This document shows, in pieces, positions 11,701 through 33,727 of a DNA stretch of 64,000 nucleotides. A program made the translations under genes and the position numbers. The notes beneath the pieces are model-generated. The model saw nothing but the letters and a program-made list of their open reading frames with translations. It was not told the origin of the DNA and ran no database searches. Source of the DNA: an uncultured Erysipelotrichaceae bacterium (GTDB taxonomy: Bacteria > Bacillota_I > Bacilli_A > RFN20 > CAG-826); contig CADCNT010000004.1 of the NCBI GenBank assembly GCA_902802905.1, positions 13,073 to 77,072 of the forward strand, given 5' to 3'. How positions within the stretch are numbered: the first letter of the stretch is position 1; each line of letters begins with the position of its first letter.

Positions 11701-11721
11701 TCCTTAAAAACTATGCGCTTA

Positions 11722-16452: not shown

Positions 16453-16467
16453 AGCTATCATTCTCCA

Positions 16468-18225: not shown

Positions 18226-18340
18226 CATATTCTCATCACCTATTATCAAATTGTCTCCTCAAATATACTAAGGACGGATATGAAATAGGGACCATCTTGG
18301 TCAAACGTCTTCTTGGTGCAATCACCGAGGAGACTTTTTT

Positions 18341-18511
18341 ATGTTAGCAATTTCAAAAGATGTGGAAGTCACGTTCATGCGTGCTATCCTTAAATATTTT
18401 TATACGCAAAAGCTGCTTACAGAAATTGAATATATACGTATCATAGACGACCTCGAGTCAGGTAATAAATACGTTGATAATAATACAGGAAAGAGTGATG
18501 TATATGTGTAG
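18341..18511 (+). CDS. Small ORF (56 aa) between the repressor and integrase, possibly co-transcribed with int
   Basis: ATG at 18341 is preceded by GAGGAG 8 nt upstream. The TAG stop overlaps the RBS of int. Sequence begins MLAISKDVEVTFMRAILKYFYTQKLLTEIEYIRIIDDLESGNKYV... Confidence 0.4.
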   Translation: MLAISKDVEVTFMRAILKYFYTQKLLTEIEYIRIIDDLESGNKYVDNNTGKSDVYV

Positions 18512-18525
18512 GAGGTTATTCATAT

Positions 18526-20268
18526 ATGAATAAAGTATCAATTATAGCCCCTACAAAAGCTGACGGAATATTCCAAAGAAGCTTAGCTGAACTCAAGGTA
18601 AAGCGTGTAGCGGCTTATGCTCGTGTTAGTACAGAAAGTGACGAGCAAGCAAACTCATTCGAAAACCAAGTTGAAGAATGGACAAGAAGGATCTTAGAAA
18701 ATCCAAATTACAAGCTAGTTAAGATCTATGCAGATGAAGGTATTTCTGGTACTTCAATACGAGGTAGAGAAGGATTCCAGGAAATGATTAGCGATGCCAA
18801 AGCAGGAAAGATTGACTTGATATTAGTTAAATCAATTTCCAGATTCGCAAGAAACACAGTCTTAACAATTCAAACTATTAGAGAACTTAAAGAGTGTGGA
18901 GTCGAAGTATATTTTGATAACGAGAACATTTGGACCTTTGACCCAAAAACAGAATTTATGCTTTCAATCATCAGTATGATGGCTCAAGAGGAGAGCAGAC
19001 ATATTTCTGAAAACGTTACTTGGACTTTCAGAAAGATGATGAACGAAGGTAAAACCTTCATCGCTTCTTCTAATTTCTTGGGTTATGACTATGACAAAGA
19101 GAAAGAAGGGCTAGTCATCAATAAAGAACAGGCACCTATCGTTAAACTTATATACGACTTATACGATCAAGGCGTTGGAACATTAGAAATATGTAGGACT
19201 CTAAAAGCCAGAGGATATAAAACTGTCACTGGCAAAGAAGACTGGCACGCAAGCACTGTTATAGGCATTTTAAAGAACGAAAAATATGTCGGCGACTTGT
19301 TGCTTCAAAAAACATATACGGTTGATTATTTGACCCATAAGAGAAGAGATAACACCGGTCAAAGGCAAAAGTATTATGTTAGAGATGCTCATGAGGCTAT
19401 TATCCCTAGAGATCAATGGGAAAGAGTCCAGGTCAAAGTGAACAACCAAGCTTTAAAGGCAATGGGTGGTCACAGGGATCTAAACCGTTATAACGTCAGG
19501 TATCCTTTGAGTGGAACGCTTATCTGTTTAGAGTGCGGAGAAACATATAAAAGAAGACACTGGTACAACGGTTATGAAGATATCGGCGGAAAGATAATGT
19601 ACCAATGCGGCGGATACGTGTATGACTATAAAAACGAAAAACACTGCAAAGTTTCTCATGGAATTAGCGAGAATCTACTCCACCACACTATTGCTGATGC
19701 CATCAACAATGTTTATTTGAAAGATAAAAGTGTCTTTAGAAAGATTTCCACTCTTATCAGAAAGGGATTATCTGTTACCTCTATAGACGAAAACATTAAT
19801 GCTAAACAAGAAGAAAAAGAGAAGATTAGCAAAGACATAGACTTTATCTTAAAAGAAAGGATGAATGCTGGTCGTACCGATATCAAAGAAAAGCTTGATA
19901 GCCAGTACGCAGAATTAGTTCAACAATATCAACGCATTTGTAGTGAAATCAAAACTCTTCAAGATAGAGAAAGAGATAACCTTGACTCTGAATCTAGATT
20001 AAACAAGATGTTGTCTATCCTGGACGGAAAACAAATCACAGCGGATATGATTACGTTAGATTTATTAGAGGCCTTTATATACCGAATTATTGTTGTTGAT
20101 AGAAAAAACATCGTCATCACAATTAACGCATTTAATTCACTTTCGCTTGAAGACCTAAGAGCTCAGAGAAAAGAGGTTGTTAAAAGAGAGCCTCTATACG
20201 AAGGAAAAGTTAGAATTAAAAACCCAAAAAGATGGGCTGAACTAAATTACAAAGTTGTGCTTGTTTAA
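18526..20268 (+). CDS. int: Large serine recombinase (integrase), 580 aa
   Basis: The resolvase N-terminal domain has the catalytic Ser region (AAYARVSTESDEQANSFENQ). A recombinase domain and a Cys-rich zinc ribbon (CLECGETYKRRHW...C) follow. A C-terminal coiled coil is present. The RBS is AGGAGG. Confidence 0.9.
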   Translation: MNKVSIIAPTKADGIFQRSLAELKVKRVAAYARVSTESDEQANSFENQVEEWTRRILENPNYKLVKIYADEGISGTSIRGREGFQEMISDAKAGKIDLILVKSISRFARNTVLTIQTIRELKECGVEVYFDNENIWTFDPKTEFMLSIISMMAQEESRHISENVTWTFRKMMNEGKTFIASSNFLGYDYDKEKEGLVINKEQAPIVKLIYDLYDQGVGTLEICRTLKARGYKTVTGKEDWHASTVIGILKNEKYVGDLLLQKTYTVDYLTHKRRDNTGQRQKYYVRDAHEAIIPRDQWERVQVKVNNQALKAMGGHRDLNRYNVRYPLSGTLICLECGETYKRRHWYNGYEDIGGKIMYQCGGYVYDYKNEKHCKVSHGISENLLHHTIADAINNVYLKDKSVFRKISTLIRKGLSVTSIDENINAKQEEKEKISKDIDFILKERMNAGRTDIKEKLDSQYAELVQQYQRICSEIKTLQDRERDNLDSESRLNKMLSILDGKQITADMITLDLLEAFIYRIIVVDRKNIVITINAFNSLSLEDLRAQRKEVVKREPLYEGKVRIKNPKRWAELNYKVVLV

Positions 20269-20271
20269 TAG

Positions 20272-20325
20272 AAAAAAAGGCCACATATCCCCGTTATTTT
20301 GAGGAAAAGTGGTCTTTTCTTTTTA
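20272..20325 (+). terminator. Putative terminator after int
   Basis: GGCCAC ... GTGGTC with one G-U pair and a large loop, followed by TTTTCTTTTT. Confidence 0.35.
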
Positions 20326-20502
20326 GTCTTTTTTAGGTAAGCATGCAACGATAATTAAACCAATTAGTCCGAGGAATAAACCTCCAAAAAACCATCCAGC
20401 TACACTTCGATTTTTATAACCAGCAATTATTGGGCAAGCAATCATACTTATAACAGTATTAATAATTCCAAGAACAGTAAATACAGGAGAAATTTCAATC
20501 AT
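20323..20502 (-). CDS. Small hydrophobic peptide (59 aa, 2 predicted TM segments)
   Basis: The translation is MIEISPVFTVLGIINTVISMIACPIIAGYKNRSVAGWFFGGLFLGLIGLIIVACLPKKD. A GGTAGGG RBS-like sequence lies upstream. It sits 79 nt downstream of gene E on the same strand. It is absent from the ORF track because it is shorter than 60 aa. Confidence 0.4.
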   Translation of the reverse strand: MIEISPVFTVLGIINTVISMIACPIIAGYKNRSVAGWFFGGLFLGLIGLIIVACLPKKD

Positions 20503-20581
20503 TTAATGGCCCTACCTTTTATAAAAGAATAGACCAACTAAAATGACTTTTGTTTTTATGTCCCTATATTGGGTACATTAA

Positions 20582-21139
20582 TTAATCACCATTAATAAAA
20601 ATATAATCTTCTGCCACTACTTCCTCTCGAGAGATTGATAAATTGAAATAGTCTTCTTCTTTTGTGTAACGGTCTGTAATGAAATGAAGCTTTTTATTCT
20701 TTGAGCCAAGCAATATTCTGTCTCTATCAATTTGATTTTCCAAGAACGGACCATCAATCAACAAATCAACGGAATTGACAAGTTCTTCGTCTAAAGAATC
20801 TTTGGTTTTTCCAGAAAACATAATAATGCCCAATCCAAGCTCATGTATTCTTGAGTTGAAGTGTTTTAAACCAACCTGTAAAGAAGGTTCTCCTCCTGTA
20901 AGAGTGATACCTTCTATTTTATATTTATCTTTAGCTATTAAAACGATGTTTAGCAACTCGTCTTCTGTAACTATGTGATTTGGCTTGAGGGCTTGCAAAT
21001 CTGGGTTCCCACATCCTTTACAATTGATATTGCATCCTTGAAACCAAATGCAGCACCTATTGAAAGGGCCTTCTATTTTAGTTAGAAGTTTAATATAAGC
21101 AACATTGAACTTAATCATTGAATTCAAATTCGAATCCAT
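20582..21139 (-). CDS. NrdG-type radical-SAM activating enzyme (anaerobic ribonucleotide reductase activase family), 185 aa
   Basis: The radical-SAM cluster is CCIWFQGCNINCKGC (Cx3Cx2C). The SAM motif is GITLTGGEPS. The C-terminal VDLLIDGPFLENQIDRDRILLGSKNKKLHF matches the layout of E. coli NrdG (…SGCVHECPGCYN…GISLSGGDPL…VLVDGKF…RGSSNQ…). No nrdD is nearby. Confidence 0.75.
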   Translation of the reverse strand: MDSNLNSMIKFNVAYIKLLTKIEGPFNRCCIWFQGCNINCKGCGNPDLQALKPNHIVTEDELLNIVLIAKDKYKIEGITLTGGEPSLQVGLKHFNSRIHELGLGIIMFSGKTKDSLDEELVNSVDLLIDGPFLENQIDRDRILLGSKNKKLHFITDRYTKEEDYFNLSISREEVVAEDYIFINGD

Positions 21140-22934
21140 TCTTACCTACTTTAGTAACAAGCTTGCTGCCTTTTAAAGAACGTAAATCATCTTTGTTTTC
21201 AAACAAGAACATGGCAAGCGGATCTAACAATCTATCATTAATAGCGTTGAGAATGTCTCTACCACCCTTAGAAGAATCAACTCCTTTAAGGATATATTCA
21301 ATCGAATCTAGTTCTTTTTCAAATTCTAATTCGAGCTTATATTTTTCTTCAATTCCCTTAATGACTGGCTTGAGTTTAGACTTGCAAATCTTAACTTGGA
21401 AGTCTCTGTCTTGAATAAAATTAAATGGAACGATGTTGTTATAACCAATACGGCCTAAAAGTTCAGGTCTCTTTAATTCATTGTCAAAGTAGTCCTTAAC
21501 AATCTTAATAAATTCTTTAGCAACGCCTTCCTTATCAGTGCTTGCGGCAACTTGATTTGCTCCTAAGTTAGAAGTAAAGACGATGATTGTATCGCTGAAA
21601 TATACTGTTTCGCCTTTAGAATCTGTCAAACGACCATCTTCTAATATTTGTAAAAAGATATCTAGGATTCTAGGATTTGGTTTCGCGGCTTTTTCAATTT
21701 CATCAAATAAAACAACACTGAATGGATGTTCTTTGATTGCATTAGTTAATTGGCCACCTTCTTCATATCCAACATAACCTGGAGCGGCACCAATTAATTT
21801 TTGGTCACTATTCTCTTGAGCATATTCAGACATATCAAAGCGGATACATGCTTGGTCATCACCGAATAAGAATTCTGCTAGTGCTTTTGATAATTCTGTT
21901 TTACCAACACCAGTTGGACCAACAAAGAAGAATACTCCTTTTGGCATTGATCTAGATGATTTCTTGTGGAGACCAGTTAAGCCCATGTAGGCTTTGATAA
22001 CAGTTTTTTCGATTTTCTCAATGGCTTCTTCTTGTCCAACGACACGTTCGGATAATTTCTTTTTAATGTTTTTAACACTAGCTTGGTCTAACTTTTCCCA
22101 AGGATTATCTTTTTCGCCGTATTTGAAGAGATAGAACAATTTGTCAAAGGACATTTTTTCTTCTTTTCTGGACAAACGAGATAATTGAATAATCTCTCTA
22201 TTTGTAAAGTCTTCGAGCATATCGATATATTGAGAATTGTCATTATCCAATAAAGAACTTGTTCCACTAGCAAGACGCACTTCAAATGAGTCTTCAATCT
22301 TCTGAATCATCGCTCTTCTTTCTAATCTATCTGGTTTTTGTAAGGTAACTATTTCTACTTCTGGGTTCCCTTGATAGAAAGATAATGGTAATCCGGATGC
22401 TTTATTAAGAATTATGACAACAACACTCTCGTTGCAATCAGAATTAAGGTAATCAACTTTTCTATCCTTAAGCGCTTTTCCTAATAAAGTAATATTTTGT
22501 CTTTCATCATCTGAAAGCCCATTCACGCTGAATAAATATTCAGACCAGTTAATAATGAAAGCTACTTTCTTTTTCTTATCTATGACGTTCTTATAAACAA
22601 CATTAAGTATTTCAGCTGGGCTTTTGAATAATCCTTGTTGAGATTTTGGATTTTTATCTTCTTCCTCATCTTCAAAATCATAGCTATCGCCTTCAACTTC
22701 AACTTCGTCTGTTAAAGTTAGCTTATCAATAGCGCCTGTTGCACCTTCAACACGATCCCAATAAACGATGTCAGGATAATCCATATCTTTAAACATCGCT
22801 TCTAGATATTCTCTTAAAGTGACGATCTTGTTTTTTTCATCAAGATAAACATCGCCGACATTGCCATCAATCATGACACACTTCTTGATACCGGCGCTTC
22901 TTCTGATTTTGTTAAAACTATTTTGTAAAGACAT
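21111..22934 (-). CDS. Novel N-terminal domain (about 300 aa) fused to a Clp/ClpB D2-type AAA+ ATPase, 607 aa
   Basis: The D2 module runs RVVGQEEAI...GVFFFVGPTGVGKTELSKALAEFLFGDDQACIRFDMSEY...IGAAPGYVGYEEGGQLTNAI...VVLFDEIEKA...LLGRI. The AGGAGG RBS is 8 nt upstream. The gene overlaps gene E by 29 nt. Confidence 0.8.
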   Translation of the reverse strand: MSLQNSFNKIRRSAGIKKCVMIDGNVGDVYLDEKNKIVTLREYLEAMFKDMDYPDIVYWDRVEGATGAIDKLTLTDEVEVEGDSYDFEDEEEDKNPKSQQGLFKSPAEILNVVYKNVIDKKKKVAFIINWSEYLFSVNGLSDDERQNITLLGKALKDRKVDYLNSDCNESVVVIILNKASGLPLSFYQGNPEVEIVTLQKPDRLERRAMIQKIEDSFEVRLASGTSSLLDNDNSQYIDMLEDFTNREIIQLSRLSRKEEKMSFDKLFYLFKYGEKDNPWEKLDQASVKNIKKKLSERVVGQEEAIEKIEKTVIKAYMGLTGLHKKSSRSMPKGVFFFVGPTGVGKTELSKALAEFLFGDDQACIRFDMSEYAQENSDQKLIGAAPGYVGYEEGGQLTNAIKEHPFSVVLFDEIEKAAKPNPRILDIFLQILEDGRLTDSKGETVYFSDTIIVFTSNLGANQVAASTDKEGVAKEFIKIVKDYFDNELKRPELLGRIGYNNIVPFNFIQDRDFQVKICKSKLKPVIKGIEEKYKLELEFEKELDSIEYILKGVDSSKGGRDILNAINDRLLDPLAMFLFENKDDLRSLKGSKLVTKVGKNGFEFEFND

Positions 22935-22946
22935 GTTGTTATCCTC

Positions 22947-24029
22947 CTATTTCTTATTTTTGCTTGTATCAACATGTTGATAATGCATTTTTTGTATTTT
23001 ATCAGGATTCTCCCATTGTACTTCTTCGTGAAGAATATTGATATCGTAAATGTTTTTCAGGTCTTCAAGGAACGGCTCAATATCTTTTCTACAAGCTTGA
23101 CCCTCATATTCATCGAAATGGTACATAAATTTGCCATTTAATTGGATTTCAAACTCTGCCATTTGGCCTGAAGCCTTAAGTGCCACTAATTTGACCACAT
23201 TTCTTTCTTTATCAATTTTTAGGTTCTTCTTAGTATCAACAATGAAGCCTCTTGCTTTAATTGCTTTGATAATGATTTTTAATGTTTCTTTTCTGATCTT
23301 CTCATCAGTAATGGACTCGTTAGCAACAGATGTGGCCTCGTCAATTGTTGTAACTGATTCAAGCACTTCTTCATCAACACCACTGTTTCTAAGGTCTTCT
23401 TTATATTCCTCAATAACTGCCCTAGTCTTTTTACCAAGAAGGACGTCATATTCTTCTTGAGCTTTGGATAATACTTCATCAAAACTAAGTCCTTGATTTT
23501 CCTCTTTAAGAAGTTCACGATATGCTAATTCTCTTAATGAAATATCGTCAATTTGATTGATTTTATCCATGATTTGCTGTGAAAACTGTAAAACTCCTTG
23601 TGACTTAGCAAGTAAATTATTACCAGCATCTAAGAGCCCTTCATCAATCATTTCATCAATCATTGCAAGCTTAGAACCGGTTAGTTCGTTTACAGTTCTA
23701 GTAAGGTCTGCCGACTGTCTTTCTAATTGTTCTCTCACTCTTAAATAATCAGCATAACGGGAGTCGTGATTATTTGTAGCAAACTTTTTTAAAGCTTGAT
23801 ATTGCTCTAATGTTGCTTTAAATTCTTCAATCTTTTTTTTGATTGTTTCTTTAGATTCAAGAAGATAATTCTCGTATTCAACAACTTTGGCTGATTCGAG
23901 CTTGCTTGCGGTCTTGTGAATCTTATCAATGGTTTTATCAATTTTGCACAAAGAATGAATGGCAGTATCACATTCGGCCTGAATTTTAATCGTTAAACCT
24001 TCGTAATCAACAGTTACTTGTTGGCTCAT
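22947..24029 (-). CDS. Coiled-coil protein of unknown function, 360 aa
   Basis: The sequence is heptad-rich with a small C-terminal alpha/beta-like region. Its start overlaps the stop of gene B (ATGA). Confidence 0.65.
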   Translation of the reverse strand: MSQQVTVDYEGLTIKIQAECDTAIHSLCKIDKTIDKIHKTASKLESAKVVEYENYLLESKETIKKKIEEFKATLEQYQALKKFATNNHDSRYADYLRVREQLERQSADLTRTVNELTGSKLAMIDEMIDEGLLDAGNNLLAKSQGVLQFSQQIMDKINQIDDISLRELAYRELLKEENQGLSFDEVLSKAQEEYDVLLGKKTRAVIEEYKEDLRNSGVDEEVLESVTTIDEATSVANESITDEKIRKETLKIIIKAIKARGFIVDTKKNLKIDKERNVVKLVALKASGQMAEFEIQLNGKFMYHFDEYEGQACRKDIEPFLEDLKNIYDINILHEEVQWENPDKIQKMHYQHVDTSKNKK

Positions 24030-26170
24030 TTAATTTCTTCCTCCAAATCAAATATTTCTTTTGCCCATCTTCTTAAGTCATCGACGGTAAAGTTTGCAGT
24101 TCTATCTTCAGGGTGAATAAAAGCGTTTCTATTTTCTCTAAAATCATGCAAGTCACTTATAATGCTCTTTTCAATTACACCGGTTCTTCTTGCATCAGAA
24201 AGCATATCTGAAAGTGTTCCATCCAATTGATATTTGTTCTTCAATATCATTTCTAATTTGGCTGAAAGATTAACAAAGACAAATTGATAATCGCCTGCAA
24301 CAATCTTTTTCTCTATAACTTCTGGTTTAATGTTACTTGGATTTTTCAAAGCCGAGTCAATCATATTTAAATAATCATTGATGGTTTCAAAGACGGACAT
24401 AAAACCTTCGTATTCAGCAAACAACTCTACGTTAGCTTTTTTAAACAATTGAATGTTTTTGAAGAGCGAATAAGCAGTACCGTATTTATTTCTAAATCCA
24501 TTTCTATCAATATTTTCTTCATCAATGGAATAAGATTTATAATTGGTTACCCCAGATATTGCCTTTAAGCCATCTAGCAATTCGGCAAAATTAACTAAGT
24601 CTATAAGTGATTTCTCTTCAACGGCTTTTTCTTTTAACGCTTCTTCGACTGGATTAATGAATAAAATCACCACTTCTTTAGCAAATCCGTTAGATACCAG
24701 CAATTCATATGTTTCCACTTTCTTAGTAAACTTTTTGTCATCAGCAAAGATAAGTTTGAGAGCTTCTTCACTACTCAATGATAAGTATTTAGGAATTGAG
24801 GATGTGATTTTAAGAACTGTCTCTAAATTTCCTTGATTACATGATTTTAAATAATCCGTGTAATTAATTTTGGTAAGTTCTTTATGCTTTAAAAGGATAT
24901 TAGGATTCATTACTGCGGTTGACTTCATTTCGTTGAGTCTCACCAAATTAGATTCGCTGCTATCAACCATATAGCCATCCATTAAAGCAGATGCCAAGTC
25001 ATAATCTTTTGTAATATTTGTCAAAAGTGTTAATTCTTTAAATTTTTCTTCTGAATACTCAGATCTTGCTTTTAGATAGATTCCAACCACTTTCTTTAGC
25101 TCGTCATTAGACAACTTAATTCTCAAAACCAACGGAAGTGTAATAGTGCTGAATTTTTCATCTTTAAAATCAAATGTTGCAGGAATATAAGCAAAAATTG
25201 AATCATGAGCATCGACTTGAATAAATTCAAACAATTTATCAAATTCATTAATTGCGTTCTCATCTTTACAAACAAGACCGTTGCTTACAGTGTAATTGCC
25301 TTTGGTAAAAAGCAACTTAAACTTCTGTTTCAAAACATCATCTATATCTTTAGGAATAATAATTCCACTTATCTTTTCGCTATCAAATAAGTCAAATGAA
25401 GCATGTTCGGTATATTTGGATTTAAATTTAAATCTATTTTTATATGAGATGGATTTTGTGATTGTTTCGTTTGTATAATAAGTCTCTGCAAATTTTTGTA
25501 ATAAAGGATCTTCAAACTTAATGCTGATAGATGAACCGTCAAGAGACATTTCACAATCATATTTGACTGTCCATTTCTCATACTCATCAATAGTTTCTAC
25601 TTTGGTAATAATTTCCTCTTTTTTAACAGGCACGCCTTTTCCTTTGTTTAAATTAAGGAAATTCTCAACATCCTTATTGCACTTGAAATTATCATAAAAT
25701 TCAGGTGTTAAAGCACAATCCATAAGAGGTTTTGGCTCTAAATCAGGATCAATCTTTAACAGCAATTCATTCTTAGCGATGTCATAAAATACAGCTAGTT
25801 TCGCTTCTTTATTCACACCTGTTGGTATTGATTCTTCGGCGAAAATCTTCTTGCCCTTTTCGGTAAATCTAAAATGTTCGATGTTATAGGCATCAAATTC
25901 ATTTTTATAAAATTGATCATAATTACATACCAATATTTCCTGTCTGATTAAGCTATCAAGTTCTTCAGCAAAGATGTAATGAAGATTCTTTGGAACACCA
26001 AAGTTCTCTAAAACACTACATAAACGTGCCGTTCTATCTTTTGATTCATTAATAAGGACCAACAAAATATAAGCCACGCCTGATGGTTTCTTGACTTCTG
26101 AATAGGTAATTAGCTCATTCATCTTAAAGAAAGGGAACTGAATAGAGGTATCTAACTTAAACTTATCCAT
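24026..26170 (-). CDS. 714-aa protein with a C-terminal HEPN-like motif (Rx4H), a putative RNase effector
   Basis: The C-terminus reads ...DLHDFRENRNAFIHPEDRTANFTVDDLRRWAKEI. The N-terminal 550 aa are unrecognised. Its start overlaps the stop of gene A by 8 nt. Confidence 0.6.
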   Translation of the reverse strand: MDKFKLDTSIQFPFFKMNELITYSEVKKPSGVAYILLVLINESKDRTARLCSVLENFGVPKNLHYIFAEELDSLIRQEILVCNYDQFYKNEFDAYNIEHFRFTEKGKKIFAEESIPTGVNKEAKLAVFYDIAKNELLLKIDPDLEPKPLMDCALTPEFYDNFKCNKDVENFLNLNKGKGVPVKKEEIITKVETIDEYEKWTVKYDCEMSLDGSSISIKFEDPLLQKFAETYYTNETITKSISYKNRFKFKSKYTEHASFDLFDSEKISGIIIPKDIDDVLKQKFKLLFTKGNYTVSNGLVCKDENAINEFDKLFEFIQVDAHDSIFAYIPATFDFKDEKFSTITLPLVLRIKLSNDELKKVVGIYLKARSEYSEEKFKELTLLTNITKDYDLASALMDGYMVDSSESNLVRLNEMKSTAVMNPNILLKHKELTKINYTDYLKSCNQGNLETVLKITSSIPKYLSLSSEEALKLIFADDKKFTKKVETYELLVSNGFAKEVVILFINPVEEALKEKAVEEKSLIDLVNFAELLDGLKAISGVTNYKSYSIDEENIDRNGFRNKYGTAYSLFKNIQLFKKANVELFAEYEGFMSVFETINDYLNMIDSALKNPSNIKPEVIEKKIVAGDYQFVFVNLSAKLEMILKNKYQLDGTLSDMLSDARRTGVIEKSIISDLHDFRENRNAFIHPEDRTANFTVDDLRRWAKEIFDLEEEIK

Positions 26171-29100
26171 TTATCTTGTTCTCCCTTCCACTAATAACAT
26201 CGGTGTCATCTATAACTTTTCCGTATCTTTCTATTGTTGAAAGAATTTCTTCATAGACTCTGAAACCTCTTTGATCCATGCCTGGTCTACCATAAACATC
26301 TGGCAAATCAATAACACCTTTTGACTCAAGGTAGTTTCTGTTTCCAACAATGATAAGCATTCTTCTTGCTCTAGATAGGGCGACATTAATTCTTTGGTAA
26401 GCCAAAATGAAGCCCGGATTGCTTCTTCTTGGGTCTTCTGGGTTACGCACGGTTGACAAGATAATGATGTCTCTTTCATCGCCTTGGAAATCATCAACGG
26501 TGGACACAATCATTTTTTCAGCATCAGTCTTAAATGCATCTGTCTTTACTTTTTCACTCTTGATAATTTCTTTAATTCTTCTTGCCTGGTCACCATAAGT
26601 ACAAATTACACCAATGCTTAATTTTTCATGCGTAGGATTTTCTTTAAAGAAGGTATTAAGCTTTTTCAACATCTCAGCGACCACTCTCGCTTCTCCAGTG
26701 TTGTACATGGATGTAGAATCGGCCTCATGTGTCTCGTTTCCTTTGCAGTCAATAAAGTAAATGTGCTTGTCTGGCTCAATGATATTTCTACCATTTGAAT
26801 AGAGCCTGACATTATGTTGCTTCTTGTTGTTTTGTCCTGGCCAACCAAGTTTTAATTCACCACGATAGAAATGATTGAAAACATGCATAATGTGCTCGTG
26901 GCATCTATATTGCTGAACTAGCATGGTTTTATAACTGCTAGGAATCTTCTCAAATAATGTTTTGAAGAAACATTCTTCATACAGTTCAGTGAATCTCTTG
27001 TTAATGTCTTTATTAATGATTGAATCATCTAAGCCTTCAAAGTCATCATCACGCAGCTTGGAGAACTCATACATAGGTGGCAATTGTCTATGGTCGCCAA
27101 CAAGAATAACGGTCTTGCCATATAAAATTGGTATGAGCAAATCAATGAAGCTAGATTTAGATACTTCATCGATAATAACCACATCAATGCCAACAGATTT
27201 AATATCAACTCCATCAATGTTGTATTCAGAAAGGGAATCTAAGTTTCTGCTACTATAATAATCGCTTGAGGTACAAGTTATACCAAACACGTTAGCGTTC
27301 TCAAACAGTTCTCTGGTATAGTCTTTTCTATCTCCTTCAATAACATCGTTGGTTGTGATGTAATTGGAGATTTTTTCATACATTGGTATCTTTTCTTTAT
27401 TCTCTTGTTCTTTACTGGTGTAATCAGTTTCTAGTTCATTCCACTTCTTCTTAATGATGACAAGAGCTTCTTCAATATCGTTAAAAGGTTCAGATATTTC
27501 AAAGTCTCTGAAGAATTGGATAACACCACTTTCTAATTTGTACTTGTTCTCTTGAACATCTTTAACGTCGTTTCTATCTTGAATATCGATTATTTGCTCA
27601 TTGATGGATTGAATTGATTTCTTGCGTGTGCTCATTTCTTTATCAAGCTTCTCTTGTTCGAGCTCAAGTTTAGCCAGCTCACCATTGCATCTTTCAATAA
27701 AATCATATTTAATCTCAGAAACTTGTTCTTTAAGTGAGGCAACAGAGTTATAAATTGAAGAGATATTTTTAACTAAGTAATCGAATTTGAAAATTCCAGA
27801 TAATTTTAAATCTTCTGGCAGTTTTTCTTCGTTAGAATCTAATTGCTTTTTAATCTCGATTAATTGTTTTCTTAATTGATCATATTCCTCTTCTTTGCCA
27901 GGAATCACATCATCAAAATCATCTTTGCAATTTTTAATTGCATCTCTTATTCTATTACGCTCAATCTCGAGCATTGTTTTATTTGAATCCGGATTAATAA
28001 CGGCGAGCTCTCTTGTTATTTCTTCCATCTTGATGCTATTGATTGCCTTAACTAATTCTGAGATATCTTTATCAACAAATATTTCCTTGTCGAACAAAGG
28101 AATTAAACTGTTGCGACATTCAATAATTAAATCAGTTTTTACATCCTCGTCTGGTTTGAGGTTGTCGTTTTCAATGTGGCGAATAGTTCTTCTGACGATA
28201 TCTATTTCTATTCTTAAAGAGTCTTTTTTGTTGCTTAAACCAGTTATTTCAACACTAATGACTTTAGCTTGCTTTTCTAAACCCTTAATCTCCTCAGCGG
28301 CATCGTTAAGAACCTTGATTGACTTATCAACTTTAGCTTTTAAGAACACTAACTTGTCAAAACTTTCTTTGAATTCCTCTTTGTTCTTTTGGAAGTTCTT
28401 ATATCTCTCCACAGCCTTCTTCATGTTAGAAGAAATATTTTCATAGAAATTATCAACTAAGTATTTTGGATCGTATTCATTTTCTTTCTTAGCTGTAGTT
28501 GGAATTAAGCGAATCGGCACTATTTCCGCAATCTTTGGCAATCTTTCAAAAACATTATCAATAGCTTTATGGGTTTCACTGGATATTAAAACCTTCTTGC
28601 CCTTTTTAACCATTTGAGCAACTGTTTCTGCTATGACTTGTGTCTTTCCTGTGCCAGGAGGACCTTGCAATAGGAAAATGCCATTACTAGAAACAGCTTT
28701 TCTTACTGCTTCTTTTTGCATTTCGTTTAATGAATCTAAATACCATGTCCAATCGCTTGGCTCAGTTTGAACACTATTAAGTTCTTCTGGATTAAATAAA
28801 TAAGTTGAAAGATATGGGTTTTTAACATAACCAGAATAAAAGTTTTTAAGTGCTTGTTCTTGTCTCTTAATCTTGGCTGTTTCCGCCCTACTGTCATAGA
28901 CAATAAATTGGCAGCTGTTAATAGCTTTTATTTGCTTATCGTTAATAGCATTATTAATATCGCCTAGTCTAAAATATAGAGCAAAACGAATGATTGTTTC
29001 TTCTTCAATAACGACTTGTTTATCATTTTTTAGCTTTGCATCGAGCTCTTCCTTGGCTGCTATTTTTTCGTTTCTAATATCGTCTTTATATTTATTATTA

Positions 29101-30674
29101 ATCTCAATTATTTTTTCACTTCTTAAACGCTTGAGTTGGTTATCGTAATTGCTTCTAAGCTTCTGCTCATATGCCGCTAGCAACTTTTCGTTTCTCTCAA
29201 CATAAAGAGATCTGACATCAAGTTTTGAGTACTCTTTTTCTAATATTTCGCTAATGCGTTCTTGATAATCATTTTCTTTTTCTTTTTTATCCTTTGGATA
29301 TTTCTTGAGAACATCTTTTCTAATAGACGCTTTCATTGTTTTAATCTTTTCAACAATAGCTGTGTCCTTGTTCTCTATTACTTCGTCATCAAGTTTTGAA
29401 GAAAGCTCTTGTTTTTTCTCTGTCAAAGATTCAGCAAGTTCTTTATCAAACTTTTTAGATGTTTCTTTAATAAAACTCTCAACTTCTGAAGAAACAATTC
29501 TTTCATACTTTGAATCTATCGTCTTGTATTCTTTGTCGATTGATAATTCATATTGATACTCTAATTCACTCAAGTGTTCTTCTGGCAAAACATCATAAGA
29601 AAAGACTTTGAACCTATCTCCCAAAGCATATCCAGAGGTCAACATCTCACCAATTCTAGGTGTTTCACCATTTCTTCCGGCAACGGTTGGATCCAAAGAA
29701 GTGATGAAAACATTATCGCTAGCTAGAGAACGAATGGCGCGCTCTTCTTCACTAACACTTTTGCCTCTTTTTAAAACTTTTTTAGATTCGAATTCTTTTT
29801 TATTTCTTTCAATTATTAAACGAACAATTGGGAATTCTTCAGCTTCTTCTATCTTGTCAGACAAAAGAATCATTTCACCATAGCCAAATTCTGGTCTGTT
29901 ATCTAAAAGATAATCTTCATAAATGGAGGAGTTCCTTTTGTATTCTTTTTTATTAACTGCATAGGCTTTAACGAATGTAGCGCTATCTAGTTTAAAGTTT
30001 CTCTTTGCTTGTTCTTGCAAATAGTAATTTCTAAATTCGATGTACTTATTCCACTCTTCGTATCTTCTTCTGACTTCTTCAGGATGAGAAACGGTGAAAC
30101 AGCTATTTATTAATTCGAGAACATTGTTTGGAGTGAAGTATGTTTCGTTATAATCGACATTTGGAATTGACCACACGCTTACATTGAAAGTACCATTGAC
30201 CCCACTTCTTCTTTCTGTTGAAAAAGAATTACATGCCATTGCCGAAATAACCATATCGTGAGGCGAGGACATAGATTCATCAATTAGTTGAATGCCTTTA
30301 ACTTCAAAGAACTTTTGCTTACCACCCTCTACTATTTTGCCAACCAATATAATGTTTTGATTATCTGGTAGATACGTGCGCATGGACATAGTTAATTCTG
30401 GTCTAATGACCACATTATCTAAAAACTGTGTTTTGCCGCTTGATGATTCTCTTTTTTCTCTTAAAAAATTTGGACAAGAAATGTAGTATCTCTTGACCAT
30501 TCCTGATGGAAAGCATGTCTCAATAAATCTTTCGAAACTATTCGACTGTCTTCTTGGAGGGATTCTTTTTTGTAGATTTTTAAACTGTCCTCTTAATGAC
30601 TCGCCAAAAAGCTCGTTTTTAACGTTTATCTCTTTGTCTAATCTATCAGCAAATGAAATAAATAAATATGGCAT
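26163..30674 (-). CDS. Upf1/DNA2-like SF1 helicase, 1503 aa, with an N-terminal extension of about 630 aa and a coiled-coil insertion of about 500 aa between Walker A and motif II
   Basis: Walker A is LLQGPPGTGKTQVIAETV, motif II is VVIIDEVSKSS, and Upf1-type motifs V/VI are VDDFQGDERDIIILSTVR and INVALSRARRMLIIVGN. The RBS is AAGGAA 7 nt upstream. Confidence 0.8.
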   Translation of the reverse strand: MPYLFISFADRLDKEINVKNELFGESLRGQFKNLQKRIPPRRQSNSFERFIETCFPSGMVKRYYISCPNFLREKRESSSGKTQFLDNVVIRPELTMSMRTYLPDNQNIILVGKIVEGGKQKFFEVKGIQLIDESMSSPHDMVISAMACNSFSTERRSGVNGTFNVSVWSIPNVDYNETYFTPNNVLELINSCFTVSHPEEVRRRYEEWNKYIEFRNYYLQEQAKRNFKLDSATFVKAYAVNKKEYKRNSSIYEDYLLDNRPEFGYGEMILLSDKIEEAEEFPIVRLIIERNKKEFESKKVLKRGKSVSEEERAIRSLASDNVFITSLDPTVAGRNGETPRIGEMLTSGYALGDRFKVFSYDVLPEEHLSELEYQYELSIDKEYKTIDSKYERIVSSEVESFIKETSKKFDKELAESLTEKKQELSSKLDDEVIENKDTAIVEKIKTMKASIRKDVLKKYPKDKKEKENDYQERISEILEKEYSKLDVRSLYVERNEKLLAAYEQKLRSNYDNQLKRLRSEKIIEINNKYKDDIRNEKIAAKEELDAKLKNDKQVVIEEETIIRFALYFRLGDINNAINDKQIKAINSCQFIVYDSRAETAKIKRQEQALKNFYSGYVKNPYLSTYLFNPEELNSVQTEPSDWTWYLDSLNEMQKEAVRKAVSSNGIFLLQGPPGTGKTQVIAETVAQMVKKGKKVLISSETHKAIDNVFERLPKIAEIVPIRLIPTTAKKENEYDPKYLVDNFYENISSNMKKAVERYKNFQKNKEEFKESFDKLVFLKAKVDKSIKVLNDAAEEIKGLEKQAKVISVEITGLSNKKDSLRIEIDIVRRTIRHIENDNLKPDEDVKTDLIIECRNSLIPLFDKEIFVDKDISELVKAINSIKMEEITRELAVINPDSNKTMLEIERNRIRDAIKNCKDDFDDVIPGKEEEYDQLRKQLIEIKKQLDSNEEKLPEDLKLSGIFKFDYLVKNISSIYNSVASLKEQVSEIKYDFIERCNGELAKLELEQEKLDKEMSTRKKSIQSINEQIIDIQDRNDVKDVQENKYKLESGVIQFFRDFEISEPFNDIEEALVIIKKKWNELETDYTSKEQENKEKIPMYEKISNYITTNDVIEGDRKDYTRELFENANVFGITCTSSDYYSSRNLDSLSEYNIDGVDIKSVGIDVVIIDEVSKSSFIDLLIPILYGKTVILVGDHRQLPPMYEFSKLRDDDFEGLDDSIINKDINKRFTELYEECFFKTLFEKIPSSYKTMLVQQYRCHEHIMHVFNHFYRGELKLGWPGQNNKKQHNVRLYSNGRNIIEPDKHIYFIDCKGNETHEADSTSMYNTGEARVVAEMLKKLNTFFKENPTHEKLSIGVICTYGDQARRIKEIIKSEKVKTDAFKTDAEKMIVSTVDDFQGDERDIIILSTVRNPEDPRRSNPGFILAYQRINVALSRARRMLIIVGNRNYLESKGVIDLPDVYGRPGMDQRGFRVYEEILSTIERYGKVIDDTDVISGRENKING

Positions 30675-30807
30675 GTCAGTTCCTTTTTAAGCAAATGATG
30701 AGCGAATGCTTATTAAAATTATATCTTATCCAACCTTATTAATTAAGGTTTTCTGTTATATTTTAGCACTAAGTTTGTTGGAGTTGGTTTTTGTCCCAAA
30801 ATCGGGT

Positions 30808-30830
30808 ACAAAAAAAAGGAATATTTCCTT
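30808..30830 (-). terminator. Rho-independent terminator after the small HTH gene
   Basis: Stem AAGGAA-TAT-TTCCTT, followed on the minus strand by a run of eight U. It separates the HTH gene from the operon promoter. Confidence 0.6.
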
Positions 30831-30834
30831 GACC

Positions 30835-31038
30835 TTAGTCAATTGATATTCCATCGATGCCAAGCATTTTGCACATTTTGAAGAATGTGTCAATGTCGGT
30901 TCCGTGGTTGATAATTCGACTCACGGTCTTACGACTAGCACCAAACTTTTTACCAAAATTGCTTTGGTTTTTATATTGGTCTTTAATGCGGCATTTGATT
31001 TCTTCCATAATGTTTTTGGAAGAGTAGCAATTAGTCAT
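30835..31038 (-). CDS. Small HTH (XRE-like) regulator, 67 aa
   Basis: HTH region FGKKFGASRKTVSRIINHG. Confidence 0.6.
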   Translation of the reverse strand: MTNCYSSKNIMEEIKCRIKDQYKNQSNFGKKFGASRKTVSRIINHGTDIDTFFKMCKMLGIDGISID

Positions 31039-31090
31039 AATCTGTCCTCCTCCGTATAGCTGAGTCGAGATTATTTGCTACAAGCCTATT

Positions 31091-32053
31091 TTACATTAAA
31101 TTGAAGAAATTATCTTTTAAAATCTTGAGAAGTGATTCATCAGAATTCCAATATGCTTCATCTGGGTCTTCTCCATACATCATTTCGCAGAATTCTTTAA
31201 CAAATTCAAAGAGGTTATTTAATGTTTCATCAACAAACTCAGGGCCAATCTTTAACCAATTGCCTGCATACATGCCGTTTTCATATTCGAACCCCACTTC
31301 TCTATAAGAGTAGACGAATTTGGATTGAAACTTCTTTAGTTTTTCATCTTTTTCAAAAGGGTTATTAGCTAAAGCATTATATGCATTAAGTGTGTTGTGT
31401 TTTAAGAAGTTATCAATTTTGTTCAAAACATCGAAATAACGATAATGAGGAAGTTTATATAAAGGGTTGGCTCTTTTTGTCTCACCGTTAAATCTTTCCT
31501 GAACATGAAAGAAGAATGATTTGTATGTGAAATCTTGGGTGTTGGTATATCCTCTTTCTTTGATAACTAAGAGAATGGTTCTAAACAACTCCGTGAAGAT
31601 CTTTTGCAAATATTGCAAATGAATGCTTTTGATGACTTCGCCATATTTCTTTTGACGCTTAGCACCAGCAAGAAGAGCGTTAAATTCAATATCTTCAAAA
31701 TCATCAGCACTAGAAGTATGAGCGATTTCGTTAACTCTAACGCTTTCTCTCACTTCTTCTGGTGTTGTTAGATTGTTGATAGCCTCTTTATATTCGAGGT
31801 TCCAATCTTTTGTGAGCCTATTTATTTGGTCCCTTAAAACGTTGACCGCATAATTTGAGCGGTTTTTATATCTAGGGATGAAATAATGTGTGTTCCTAGG
31901 TGTTGTAAAAAGAGCTTCAGGAAAGCATCCATCACAGTGAAGCAACTTTAATCTCTTTGTATCGATATGATATCTTCCATCTTTAAGATGAAAGCCATAA
32001 TAAGCATAGTCACTAGGGCTAACTTTATCGTAATCAAATAGTTCTCTAGTCAT
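31091..32053 (-). CDS. Hypothetical protein, 320 aa
   Basis: Long ORF immediately upstream of the HTH gene with the same orientation. No recognised motifs. Confidence 0.55.
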   Translation of the reverse strand: MTRELFDYDKVSPSDYAYYGFHLKDGRYHIDTKRLKLLHCDGCFPEALFTTPRNTHYFIPRYKNRSNYAVNVLRDQINRLTKDWNLEYKEAINNLTTPEEVRESVRVNEIAHTSSADDFEDIEFNALLAGAKRQKKYGEVIKSIHLQYLQKIFTELFRTILLVIKERGYTNTQDFTYKSFFFHVQERFNGETKRANPLYKLPHYRYFDVLNKIDNFLKHNTLNAYNALANNPFEKDEKLKKFQSKFVYSYREVGFEYENGMYAGNWLKIGPEFVDETLNNLFEFVKEFCEMMYGEDPDEAYWNSDESLLKILKDNFFNLM

Positions 32054-32365
32054 AAACCTCGCCTTTTTAATTGTTTATTTAAACTAAGTGCAGCACACCA
32101 CTCCTTGATAAACAACATAGGTGTCGCATTAAACAACGCGTTTTATGCTCCTGCTGCGAATTAATACTATCATATCAGCTAATCAACTCCAACTTTTGTC
32201 CCCAAAAATGTCCCAAGCATAAGTAAAAAGAAAACCATAACACTTTGTGTTATTTATCCACAACCCTCCTCAATGGTGCTTTTTGTCTTGGTTTATAATA
32301 CATTTAAGTATTATAAAGAAGATTGTTTAGTTAGTGTTTCAACATCCAGTTTTGTTAAATGGCCG

Positions 32366-33703: not shown

Positions 33704-33727
33704 ATCATGACCTCGCGAATACATATT

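What the first reader, a model, noticed from the sequence alone, without database searches (positions are those of the whole stretch)
20323..30674. Unassigned, translationally coupled operon: Upf1-like giant helicase / HEPN / coiled-coil / Clp-D2 AAA+ / NrdG-like radical-SAM (+ small membrane peptide)
Five minus-strand ORFs overlap or nearly abut each other. A stop overlaps B start by 8 nt. B/C share ATGA. C stop and D start are 12 nt apart. D/E overlap by 29 nt. The operon has its own promoter (a TATAAT-like box about 42 nt upstream of 30674) and a terminator separating it from the upstream HTH gene. I cannot match this set of domains in this arrangement to any named defence system. The nearest analogues are Mokosh, Nhi, Hachiman, Gabija, RADAR and the viperin systems. 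It sits directly next to a serine-integrase satellite and 9 kb from a DISARM operon, which is the usual context for anti-phage cargo. A 59-aa two-TM peptide (20323-20502) follows on the same strand with no intervening terminator and could be a sixth, membrane-acting component.
Basis: partly seen in the sequence, partly recalled or inferred. Interest (0 to 1): 0.9.

Follow-up and report, generated by a model that had tools for sequence, protein, structure and literature searches.

The report
Unnamed five-gene putative antiphage operon
A tightly packed operon encoding an RNA-type helicase, an RNA-cutting HEPN protein, a coiled-coil protein, a ClpB-like protein-unfolding motor and a small radical-SAM enzyme is real. 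It is kept as a unit in about a hundred related loci from gut and other metagenomes, matches no named system, and is most likely an undescribed anti-phage defence system.

Summary

The set is a conserved module:
- 65 of 66 fetched loci with enough upstream DNA carry A, B and C.
- 94 of 95 with enough downstream DNA carry E.
- Order and junction geometry are the same even where B is only 20-30% identical.
- All catalytic motifs are kept in every locus.

The module is rare (19 of 185,579 species genomes) and patchy across Firmicutes and Mollicutes. It sits beside serine integrases, prophage or satellite genes and other defence genes.

It meets no membership test. The helicase matches PADLOC MkoA (6.8e-98), but the PLD nuclease and kinase that define Mokosh are absent. 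B and C have no family hits apart from B's weak DUF4145 (HEPN) match. Nine literature searches found no description.

The sixth gene depends on lineage: the 59-aa membrane peptide here, an RNase III-like gene elsewhere, or nothing.

Best reading: an unnamed defence system in which a helicase and HEPN RNase arm is joined to a highly conserved core of C-domain, ClpB-like unfoldase and activase-like radical-SAM enzyme. The chemistry of that core is unknown. A defence function is inferred, not shown.

The parts
31091..32053 (-). [not shown]
   Evidence: 29% identity, E 1e-37 to the 309-aa gene preceding A in L004. Present in about half of the loci, the others carrying a 172-aa HTH protein instead. 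No Pfam, PADLOC or NCBIfam hit. Invariant NFxKHN motif.
30835..31038 (-). 67-aa Xre/HipB-like HTH protein, the probable transcriptional regulator of the operon.
   Evidence: Weak NCBIfam HipB-antitoxin HTH hit. 77-79% identical copies sit at the same place in L009 and L023. An HTH gene lies upstream of the operon in nearly all loci.
30810..30830 (-).
   Evidence: AAGGAA-ATA-TTCCTT followed by a T-run, read. Fold -6.7 kcal/mol, z -1.0. Not flagged by the scan.
30718..30723 (-). TATAAT -10-like hexamer, 43 nt upstream of the A start codon.
   Evidence: Read. No good -35 element and not listed by the consensus scan. A consensus match only.
26163..30674 (-). A: 1503-aa Upf1-like SF1B helicase. Walker A is at 671-678 (K677) and DEVSK at 1169, with about 490 aa between them including a helical insertion. 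The N-terminal extension of about 650 aa includes a coiled-coil-like segment at 381-560.
   Evidence: Pfam AAA_11 1.4e-30 and AAA_12 8.8e-44. PADLOC MkoA 6.8e-98. PDB SMUBP-2, SEN1, UPF1 and DNA2 hits at 1e-21 to 1e-25. Motif positions and composition. The N-terminal region has no Pfam or PDB relative.
24026..26170 (-). B: 714-aa protein, the fastest-evolving component. The N-terminal two thirds are new, made of beta-rich domains with a possible winged helix. The C-terminal domain (about 616-714) is HEPN with the motif R681-N-A-F-I-H686.
22947..24029 (-). C: 360-aa protein with a long helical, coiled-coil-like N-part (1-240) and a very conserved small alpha/beta C-terminal domain (241-345). 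Invariant residues include G261, F262, G288, Y303, H304, C313 and N341-P-D343.
21111..22934 (-). D: 607-aa AAA+ ATPase and the most conserved component. It has a conserved N-domain of unknown fold (1-280) and a ClpB/ClpC/ClpE D2-type module: Walker A 339-346 (K345), Walker B FDEIEK (E412), pore loop GYVG (Y387) and a D2-small domain. No ClpP-docking loop.
   Evidence: AAA_2 1.4e-50 and ClpB_D2-small. ClpB TIGR03346 253.7 bits against a cutoff of 1232. PDB ClpE, ClpC and ClpB D2 at 1e-54 to 1e-58; the alignment shows the shared PGYVGY pore loop and no VGF at the ClpE position. PADLOC PDC-M37B 1.8e-33 and DolB 2.6e-20. 87-92% identical where B is 52-67%.
20582..21139 (-). E: 185-aa minimal radical-SAM enzyme of the NrdG/PflA activase type, with cluster motif C36-x3-C40-x2-C43 and SAM motif GGEP at 82.
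   Evidence: Fer4_12 7.5e-24 and Radical_SAM 5.9e-11. NCBIfam scores: NrdG 66.9 bits (cutoff 126), NrdG2 58.3, PFLA 52.4, QueE 26.4, viperin 19.6. PFL-AE is the only PDB hit. Motifs are kept in all loci.
20323..20502 (-). F: 59-aa peptide with two hydrophobic segments. It is the clade-specific sixth gene; the same slot holds an RNase III-like gene in many other clades.
   Evidence: 88-90% identical in L009 and L023, where E is 74-78% and B 66%. It follows E in 6 of 6 places that carry the variant P0405, each with different downstream genes. Slot statistics: RNase III-like 33, F 5, neither 39. Hydropathy.
20272..20321 (-). Strong intrinsic terminator hairpin with a U-tract that ends the operon. 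It is A-rich on the other side, so it may also serve the convergent integrase gene.
   Evidence: -18.7 kcal/mol, z -4.3, with 0 of 200 shuffles as stable. Homology with L009 and L023 ends at 20318.

Best explanation
The locus is an intact copy of a conserved, so far unnamed multi-gene anti-phage (or anti-mobile-element) defence system. The core is A-B-C-D-E, with an Xre-type regulator module upstream and a variable sixth gene. It moves as a cassette of about 12 kb among anaerobic Firmicutes and Mollicutes, often on or beside integrase-bearing prophage or satellite elements.

Proposed mechanism. Only the steps marked 'shown' rest on data.
1. Shown: the five genes are co-inherited and translationally coupled, and their ATPase, HEPN and radical-SAM motifs are universally preserved. 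All five activities are therefore under selection.
2. Inferred: A, a Upf1/MkoA-like 5'-3' RNA or ssDNA translocase with long coiled-coil arms, surveys invader transcripts or replication intermediates.
3. Inferred: B, the fastest-evolving protein, is the RNA-cleaving effector through its HEPN domain. Its variable N-terminal domains contact phage factors. The RNase III-like sixth gene in many variants points to structured or double-stranded RNA as substrate.
4. Inferred, weakest: the slowly evolving core is a protein-directed module. This core is C's C-terminal domain, the ClpB-type threading motor D (intact GYVG pore loop, no ClpP loop) and the glycyl-radical-activase-like enzyme E. D unfolds or presents a polypeptide and E abstracts a backbone hydrogen from it. 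The purpose would be either to license the nuclease arm or to inactivate a conserved target protein. Every taxon named for a carrying genome is a group I know as anaerobic or host-associated, which would fit oxygen-sensitive chemistry.
For: Synteny:
- 65 of 66 loci with at least 8.2 kb upstream of D have A, B and C. 94 of 95 with at least 0.7 kb downstream have E.
- Modal junctions are A/B -8, B/C -4, C-D +11 or +12, and D/E overlapping.
- The order holds at B identities of 30%, 25% and 20%.
- It also holds in a genetic-code-4 Malacoplasma, where the genes are intact and carry in-frame TGA codons.

Catalytic motifs are conserved in every locus.

Rarity and patchiness:
- 19 loci in 185,579 species genomes, across Erysipelotrichaceae, Christensenellales, Anaeroplasma, Gemmiger, Malacoplasma and others.
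- B has only 145 clusters among 1.84 billion representatives.

Mobile and island context:
- The identical cassette has different flanks, including Thoeris genes and SMEK_N NTPases.
- Serine integrases lie directly adjacent.
- One copy sits in prophage-like DNA with TerS, DNA methyltransferases and ParB.
- Other copies lie between housekeeping genes, with block ends at window 32163 and 20318.
- In this window the operon lies between PDC-S01 and a satellite, 9 kb from a Type IIG RM plus DrmD-like pair.

Component evidence:
- The helicase is related to a validated defence helicase: PADLOC MkoA 6.8e-98.
- The HEPN fold and motif are supported, and DUF4145 is a recognised HEPN family tied to RM and Abi systems (PMC3710099).
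- Evolutionary-rate ranking is D > E > C, A > B, with C's C-domain as conserved as D.
- A C-D-E trio stands alone in L102.
- E scores about 40 bits higher against activase models than against QueE or viperin models.
Against: - There is no experimental evidence of phage protection for any member. Defence is inferred from context and domain content, and I did not compute a formal enrichment statistic against a genomic background.
- The fetched loci are not independent; many are near-identical.
- The roles of C, D and E are guesses. E is below every NCBIfam cutoff, and no canonical RVxG[FWY] glycyl-radical motif exists in A-D.
- C's model is only moderately confident (pLDDT 68) and its fold search was uninformative.
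- The N-domains of A and D have no detectable relatives.
- One locus lacks E (L014) and one lacks A and B (L102).
- PADLOC-DB dates from 2023, DefenseFinder models were not available, and the paper library omits most subscription journals. A recent description could have been missed.
Confidence: 0.6

Rival explanations
1. It is simply a Mokosh (type I) system with a swapped effector. The MkoA-like helicase senses phage RNA and the neighbouring gene is the nuclease. C, D and E are passengers.
For: PADLOC MkoA E 6.8e-98, covering residues 414-1483. The helicase is Upf1-like, as described for MkoA. A nuclease-type effector gene overlaps the helicase gene.
Against: Mokosh is defined by a COG1112 helicase plus a PLD nuclease, with an STK domain in type I. 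No PLD or kinase domain is detectable in A-F. C, D and E are not passengers: they co-occur in 94-99% of loci, are translationally coupled to B, and are the most conserved parts.
Confidence: 0.1
2. Two independent systems are fused by proximity: a helicase-HEPN pair (A-B, Hhe/Mokosh-like) and a separate C-D-E module (Dodola/PDC-M37-like). Each works alone.
For: L102 carries C-D-E without A or B. The two halves evolve at very different rates. D alone hits two-gene PADLOC systems, DolB and PDC-M37B.
Against: 65 of 66 loci keep all the genes. The B/C junction is a 4-nt ATGA overlap in 62 of 85 loci. No A-B pair without C-D-E turned up among B-family loci down to 20% identity. The partners DolA and PDC-M37A are absent.
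Confidence: 0.1
3. It is a maintenance, addiction or competition module of integrative elements (prophages, satellites) rather than host immunity. One example would be a HEPN toxin system that stabilises the element or interferes with helper phages.
For: Serine integrases are frequently adjacent. One copy is embedded in prophage-like DNA. In this window the operon abuts a TerS/VapE/integrase satellite. HEPN domains are common toxins.
Against: In L009 and L023 the cassette lies between housekeeping genes, and the reference blast found no integrase homologue in either 22-kb locus. No match in 72,556 plasmids or 50,697 phage genomes. No antitoxin-like partner is evident. Element-borne defence cargo is itself the usual pattern, so this rival overlaps with the main reading.
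Confidence: 0.12
4. It is a housekeeping or stress pathway for RNA or protein quality control in anaerobes, for example RNA surveillance plus disaggregation.
For: Upf1-like helicases, RNase III and ClpB-type ATPases are classical quality-control enzymes.
Against: Present in only 19 of 185,579 species genomes, with a patchy phylogenetic spread. Genomic positions are variable and flanks are island-like. B diverges rapidly. All NCBIfam scores are far below the equivalog cutoffs.
Confidence: 0.04

Closest known systems
Mokosh type I (MkoA helicase + MkoB PLD nuclease; Millman et al. 2022)
   Same: A large Upf1-like COG1112 helicase with an extended N-terminus (PADLOC MkoA 6.8e-98). The next gene encodes a nuclease-type effector. 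Both are predicted to sense phage RNA or replication intermediates.
   Different: The effector is a HEPN RNase, not a PLD nuclease, and there is no Ser/Thr kinase domain. Three further obligatory genes (C, D, E) have no Mokosh counterpart.
Hhe (Gao et al. 2020; single protein with DUF4011, an SF1 helicase and nuclease domains)
   Same: An SF1 Upf1-like helicase combined with nuclease-type effector domains. That architecture is from my memory. The only evidence here is weak hits to A: PADLOC Hhe 4e-10 and NCBIfam Hhe 37.7 bits.
   Different: The score is far below the Hhe cutoff of 2000 bits. The activities sit on separate proteins, no DUF4011 or Vsr domain was detected, and C-D-E are extra.
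Dodola (DolA/DolB) and PADLOC candidate PDC-M37 (A/B)
   Same: Both contain a ClpB-D2-like AAA+ ATPase. D hits PDC-M37B at 1.8e-33 and DolB at 2.6e-20.
   Different: The hits cover only the AAA+ core (residues 271-464). The partner proteins DolA and PDC-M37A are absent, and D has its own conserved 280-aa N-domain.
Prokaryotic viperins (pVip)
   Same: To my knowledge, the only established defence family built on a radical-SAM enzyme.
   Different: E is a 185-aa NrdG/PflA-type minimal enzyme. It scores 19.6 bits against the viperin model (cutoff 180) versus 66.9 against NrdG. It is also embedded in a five-gene complex rather than standing alone.
Glycyl-radical-enzyme activases (NrdG, PflA)
   Same: E's best sequence relatives. 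It shares their size range, the CX3CX2C-G-N cluster motif and the GGE SAM motif.
   Different: E is below all family cutoffs. There is no NrdD or PFL-type substrate gene in the operon and no RVxG[FWY] motif in the partner proteins.
Type II/III CoCoNuT systems (Bell et al. 2024, PMC11090510)
   Same: A Upf1-like helicase (CnuH), extensive coiled coils, HEPN or other RNase domains, and predicted RNA targeting.
   Different: CoCoNuTs are defined by a McrB-type GTPase and McrC, neither of which is present here. The AAA+ here is ClpB-type, and there is a radical-SAM enzyme.

Membership tests
Mokosh type I | COG1112/Upf1-like helicase (MkoA) | tested here: met
   PADLOC MkoA 6.8e-98. Pfam AAA_11/AAA_12. 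UPF1, SMUBP-2 and SEN1 in the PDB.
Mokosh type I | PLD-family nuclease, either a separate MkoB or fused as in MkoC | tested here: not met
   No PLD Pfam domain and no MkoB hit in A-F. The MkoC hit to A (8.8e-34) lies within the helicase region (residues 648-1452). Definition taken.
Mokosh type I | Ser/Thr kinase domain in MkoA | tested here: not met
   No kinase family among the Pfam hits to A at E<=0.01, and none for residues 1-658 at E<=1.
Dodola | DolB ClpB-like ATPase together with DolA (DUF6414) | tested here: not met
   D hits DolB at 2.6e-20 over the AAA+ core only. No DolA or DUF6414 hit in any operon protein.
PADLOC PDC-M37 | PDC-M37A together with PDC-M37B | tested here: not met
   D hits PDC-M37B at 1.8e-33 (residues 271-464). 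No PDC-M37A hit among A-F.
Prokaryotic viperin (pVip) | Viperin-family radical-SAM protein (NF038283, cutoff 180 bits) | tested here: not met
   E scores 19.6 bits. PADLOC pVip E is 1e-4 over the cluster-binding region only.
Class III RNR activase NrdG / PFL activase | Score above the family cutoff (TIGR02491, 126.1 bits) and a linked glycyl-radical enzyme gene | tested here: not met
   66.9 bits. No NrdD or PFL-like ORF in or next to the operon.
Radical-SAM superfamily | CX3CX2C [4Fe-4S] motif and GGE SAM-binding motif | tested here: met
   C36/C40/C43 and G82-G-E-P. Kept in all loci. Pfam Radical_SAM 43.3 bits, above the 29.5 cutoff.
HEPN superfamily (DUF4145 family) | Four-helix HEPN fold with an Rx4-6H motif | tested here: met
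   [not shown]
ClpB/Hsp104-type AAA+ (D2 module) | Walker A and B, GYVG pore loop, D2-small domain; full two-ring ClpB architecture with an M-domain | tested here: inconclusive
   The D2 features are all present. The score is 253.7 bits against the ClpB cutoff of 1232, and there is no D1 or M-domain. The N-domain shows no AAA+ signal by hhalign. No ClpP-docking VGF loop.
CoCoNuT (Type IV restriction subclass) | McrB-type GTPase (CnuB) and McrC (CnuC) | tested here: not met
   No McrB or McrC family hits in A-F. Definition taken.
   DrmD-like at 1.1e-99. The methylase fits Type IIG RE-MTase best (1.2e-230, against DrmMI 7.8e-61). No DrmA, DrmB or DrmC-sized ORF is listed in 1-3940; ORFs that run off the window end are not listed.
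Anti-phage defence system (generic) | Experimentally shown protection against phage | not testable with these tools
   Only context, mobility and domain content are available.

The most novel reading that the evidence does not exclude
The conserved core carries out radical chemistry on a protein as part of immunity. This core is C's C-terminal domain, the ClpB-like threading motor D and the glycyl-radical-activase-like enzyme E. D would extract or present a polypeptide loop and E would generate a backbone (glycyl-type) radical on it. Candidate targets are C's invariant hairpin-tip Gly288, which is preceded by K/R at -3 and accompanied by invariant Cys313, or a conserved host or phage protein. 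The radical would switch on the helicase/HEPN arm or irreversibly destroy the target. That would be an oxygen-sensitive immune mechanism particular to anaerobes, with no described precedent that I know of.
Probability: 0.18. Interest if true: 0.92.

Novelty: new variant of a known kind. Interest (0 to 1): 0.72.

Why it matters
If validated, this would add a defence system that occurs in human-gut metagenome contigs and in genomes of gut-associated bacterial groups. Its most conserved parts are a protein unfoldase and a minimal radical-SAM 'activase'. Apart from viperins, I know of no immune system built on that chemistry.

It would also extend the Mokosh, Hhe and CoCoNuT theme of Upf1-like helicases guarding against invader RNA. 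It links that theme to a HEPN RNase and, in many variants, to an RNase III.

It offers a tractable model for what ClpB-like ATPases do in defence systems such as Dodola, whose mechanism is unknown to me.

The system has probably escaped functional screens because those are run aerobically in E. coli. That makes it a concrete test of whether anaerobe-specific immune chemistry exists.

Tried and rejected
1. Assignment to a named system. PADLOC, NCBIfam and Pfam gave only single-component or sub-threshold hits.
2. Literature. Nine full-text searches combined radical SAM, ClpB, HEPN, Upf1, anti-phage, 'PLuB system' and ProA. None found this gene set. The CoCoNuT, Aravind-group and lactococcal Abi papers that came up describe different systems.
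3. A glycyl-radical substrate inside the operon. No RVxG[FWY] motif was found. The KASGQ hairpin in C reduces to a single invariant Gly in distant orthologues, so it is kept only as a weak lead.
4. D's N-domain as a degenerate AAA+ ring. This was my impression from motifs. The hhalign comparison with D2 was negative (probability 0.2%) and the PDB profile search was empty, so I do not claim it.
7. Informative domain fusions among long B-family members: none.
8. A non-coding RNA or repeat component. There was no Rfam hit at E<=0.1 and no relevant tandem repeat in 19000-34000.
9. Attachment sites for the neighbouring satellite. No tRNA genes and no long direct repeats were found.
10. Presence in curated plasmid and phage genome collections: none.


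Full report
**1. The observation**

On the minus strand:

| Gene | Coordinates | Length |
|---|---|---|
| A | 26163-30674 | 1503 aa |
| B | 24026-26170 | 714 aa |
| C | 22947-24029 | 360 aa |
| D | 21111-22934 | 607 aa |
| E | 20582-21139 | 185 aa |
| F | 20323-20502 | 59 aa |

The junctions are -8, -4 (ATGA), +12 and -29 nt. For E, a second ATG at 21118 would give an 8-nt overlap, and gene callers used it on two identical metagenome contigs.

A TATAAT lies at 30718-30723, although the consensus scan did not list it. The hairpin after the upstream HTH gene is weak (-6.7 kcal/mol, z -1.0). A strong hairpin with a U-tract closes the operon after F (-18.7 kcal/mol, z -4.3). Nothing resembling a terminator separates E from F.

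**2. Domain content**

*A* is a Upf1-like SF1B helicase.
- Pfam gives AAA_11 and AAA_12. The PDB relatives are SMUBP-2, SEN1, UPF1 and DNA2.
- Walker A is at 671-678 and DEVSK at 1169, so about 490 residues lie between motifs I and II.
- The N-terminal extension of about 650 residues includes a segment (381-560) with 59% E/K/Q/R/D/L and almost no Gly or Pro.
- The N-terminal region has no Pfam or PDB relative.

*B* has only a weak DUF4145 hit here (20.8 bits), but the evidence for a HEPN domain is good.
- The L004 orthologue passes gathering at 24.7 bits.
- R681-N-x3-H686 is invariant.
- 68 of 77 full-length family representatives keep R[ND]xxxH.
- DUF4145 is an established HEPN family linked to RM and Abi systems (PMC3710099).
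- The N-terminal two thirds of B find nothing (Foldseek; PDB profile).

*D* has a ClpB/ClpC/ClpE D2-type AAA+ module.
- It keeps Walker A and B, the PGYVGY pore loop and the D2-small domain.
- It lacks the VGF ClpP-docking tripeptide seen at the aligned position in ClpE.
- Its first 280 residues form a conserved domain of unknown fold.

*E* is a minimal radical-SAM protein with CX3CX2C and GGEP. Its best NCBIfam scores are to activases: NrdG 66.9, NrdG2 58.3 and PFLA 52.4 bits. QueE scores 26.4 and viperin 19.6. All are below their cutoffs.

**3. Is it a unit?**

Yes. I collected loci in four ways:
- Exact and homologous look-ups.
- A scan of 185,579 species genomes with a B profile, which gave 19 loci.
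- A B search of 1.84 billion cluster representatives. It gave only 145 hits, with full-length relatives down to 21% identity.
- A metagenome scan with D's private N-domain, which gave 244 hits, of which 80 were fetched.

Across these loci:
- 65 of 66 with at least 8.2 kb upstream of D contain A, B and C, and 94 of 95 with at least 0.7 kb downstream contain E.
- Junction geometry is preserved: A/B -8 in 47 of 74, B/C -4 in 62 of 85, and C-D +11 or +12 in 73 of 95.
- The order holds where B is 30%, 25% and 20% identical.
- A Malacoplasma copy is intact only under genetic code 4, with 1-5 in-frame TGA codons per gene. It has therefore been expressed in that host.
- Every catalytic motif is present in every locus.

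There are two exceptions. L014 lacks E. L102 has C-D-E but no A or B.

Evolutionary rates are strikingly uneven.
- D is 87-92% identical where B is 52-67%.
- In the most distant locus the values are D 52%, A 31%, C 28% and B 20%.
- C is split. Its C-terminal domain averages 88% identity and its helical part 60%. Residues G261, F262, G288, Y303, H304, C313 and N341-P-D343 are invariant even at 26% overall identity.

**4. Accessory genes**

The sixth slot is variable. It holds an RNase III-like gene of about 166 aa in 33 loci, the 59-aa peptide F in 5, and neither in 39.
- The RNase III-like protein keeps the catalytic E/D signatures.
- F is real and linked to the operon within its clade. It is 88-90% identical in L009 and L023, more conserved than E or B there.
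- A close F variant follows E in 6 of 6 places, each with different downstream genes.

Upstream there is always an HTH regulator, in one of two forms:
- A 172-aa HTH protein.

**5. Context**

The block from window 32163 to 20318 is the unit shared with the closest foreign genomes. There it lies between housekeeping genes: UvrC and MutS2, or pseudouridine synthase and TrpRS.

Elsewhere, one identical cassette has four different left flanks, including Thoeris genes and a SMEK_N NTPase, and a convergent serine recombinase on the right. Other copies sit directly after two serine integrases. Another lies inside prophage-like DNA with methyltransferases, TerS and ParB.

In this window the operon lies between a PDC-S01 gene and a TerS/VapE/HTH/serine-integrase satellite. 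It is 9 kb from a Type IIG RE-MTase plus DrmD-like helicase pair, which is not a full DISARM.

Curated plasmid and phage collections contain no match. Source annotations are generic or wrong: 'hypothetical protein', 'superfamily I helicase' and 'DNA polymerase III delta prime'. The organisms named for carrying genomes belong to gut-associated and, to my knowledge, largely anaerobic groups, and several metagenome contigs are labelled human gut.

**6. What it most likely is**

Several lines point the same way:
- rarity and patchy spread;
- cassette-like mobility and island or prophage context;
- a regulator module upstream;
- a fast-evolving component next to conserved enzymes;
- a helicase that matches a validated defence helicase (MkoA, 6.8e-98).

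Together they indicate an anti-phage or anti-mobile-element system. I put this at about 0.7 for the function and about 0.97 for a selected five-gene functional unit.

I propose two arms.
- The A-B arm resembles Mokosh, Hhe and CoCoNuT logic. A Upf1-like translocase on invader RNA or ssDNA is coupled to a nuclease, here a HEPN RNase. The RNase III-like gene in many variants argues for structured or double-stranded RNA.
- The slowly evolving arm (C-domain, D and E) is protein-directed. D has the features of a polypeptide-threading motor that does not feed ClpP. E is closest to enzymes whose known substrates are protein glycine residues.

I therefore favour D presenting a polypeptide to E for hydrogen abstraction. 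That would serve either as a licensing switch or as a way to destroy a conserved target. This last step is inference only, at about 0.2-0.25. No canonical glycyl-radical motif exists in the operon.

**7. Comparison with known systems**

Mokosh membership fails on two defining features, the PLD nuclease and the kinase domain. Dodola and PDC-M37 fail for lack of their partner proteins. pVip, NrdG and ClpB fail on score thresholds. CoCoNuT fails for lack of McrBC. The NCBIfam models for Hhe, ProA and the PLuB helicase match only the helicase core, far below their cutoffs. Nine full-text literature searches found no description.

**8. Limits**

- There is no experiment and no formal enrichment statistic.
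- Many fetched loci are close relatives.
- PADLOC-DB dates from 2023, DefenseFinder was unavailable, and subscription journals are largely outside the library.
- C's structure is only moderately confident.

**9. Verdict**

This is a new multi-gene variant within the helicase-plus-nuclease class of defence systems, with a conserved core whose chemistry is undescribed. Interest is 0.72.

Noticed in passing
window 3940-11576 (minus strand): A 1591-aa Type IIG restriction-methyltransferase (PADLOC 1.2e-230; also DrmMI-like at 7.8e-61) sits directly downstream of a 952-aa DrmD-like SNF2 helicase (1.1e-99). No DrmA, DrmB or DrmC-sized ORF is listed nearby. This looks like a two-gene RM-plus-helicase unit rather than a complete DISARM.
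   Followed up: partly
window 12057-20268: A satellite-like integrative element: small terminase 12057-12623, VapE primase/helicase 13020-15377, several small unknown ORFs, an HTH repressor 17446-18225 and a serine integrase 18526-20268 that converges on the operon. The window has no tRNA and no long att-like direct repeats. Homology with integrase-free relatives ends at 20318, just after the F stop codon.
   Followed up: partly
window 32366-33724 (minus strand): An AAA_14/DUF4143 ATPase matches the PADLOC candidate PDC-S01 (1.6e-145). AAA_14-like genes also flank other copies of the operon (L014, L046, L052, L062).
   Followed up: partly
window 34035-36080 and 36168-37091 (minus strand): Two ORFs (681 aa and 307 aa) with no Pfam or PADLOC hit lie between the PDC-S01 gene and housekeeping genes. 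The 307-aa ORF has only a weak NCBIfam membrane-protein match. They may be further island cargo.
   Followed up: no
window 41718-42524 (minus strand): A 268-aa HNH/GmrSD_C-like endonuclease gene lies next to sugar-metabolism genes.
   Followed up: no
L102 (metagenome contig ODUH01000050.1), 8857-12455: C-D-E homologues occur without any A or B homologue in the 8.8 kb upstream. That stretch instead holds an aminoacyl-tRNA synthetase, a Schlafen AlbA_2/HATPase_c_4 protein and a papain-like protein. This suggests C-D-E can exist as a separate module.
   Followed up: partly
L014 (uncultured Clostridia MAG), 13263-16672: This operon copy lacks E. D is followed after about 320 nt by a 422-aa ORF, and further on by an AAA_14-like gene (18398-19753). 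It is the only E-less case among 95 loci.
   Followed up: partly
L020 (Malacoplasma sp. MAG2), 5494-15660: All five genes look fragmented under code 11. Under code 4 they are intact (1504, 727, 372, 607 and 181 aa), with 5, 2, 1, 1 and 1 in-frame TGA codons. The system has been maintained in a TGA=Trp host.
   Followed up: yes
window 31091-32053 and its homologues (alignment A3): The fast-evolving upstream protein Z has an invariant NFxKHN motif and conserved IDTKR and GY motifs, but no detectable family. A profile comparison with the HEPN protein B was negative.
   Followed up: partly
[not shown]
   Followed up: no
window 55346-63631 (minus strand): Three large ORFs: a RecD-like protein of 647 aa, a UvrD/GajB-like protein of 1153 aa and an unassigned 987-aa protein. 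They look like a RecD2 plus AddAB-type repair cluster rather than defence genes.
   Followed up: no
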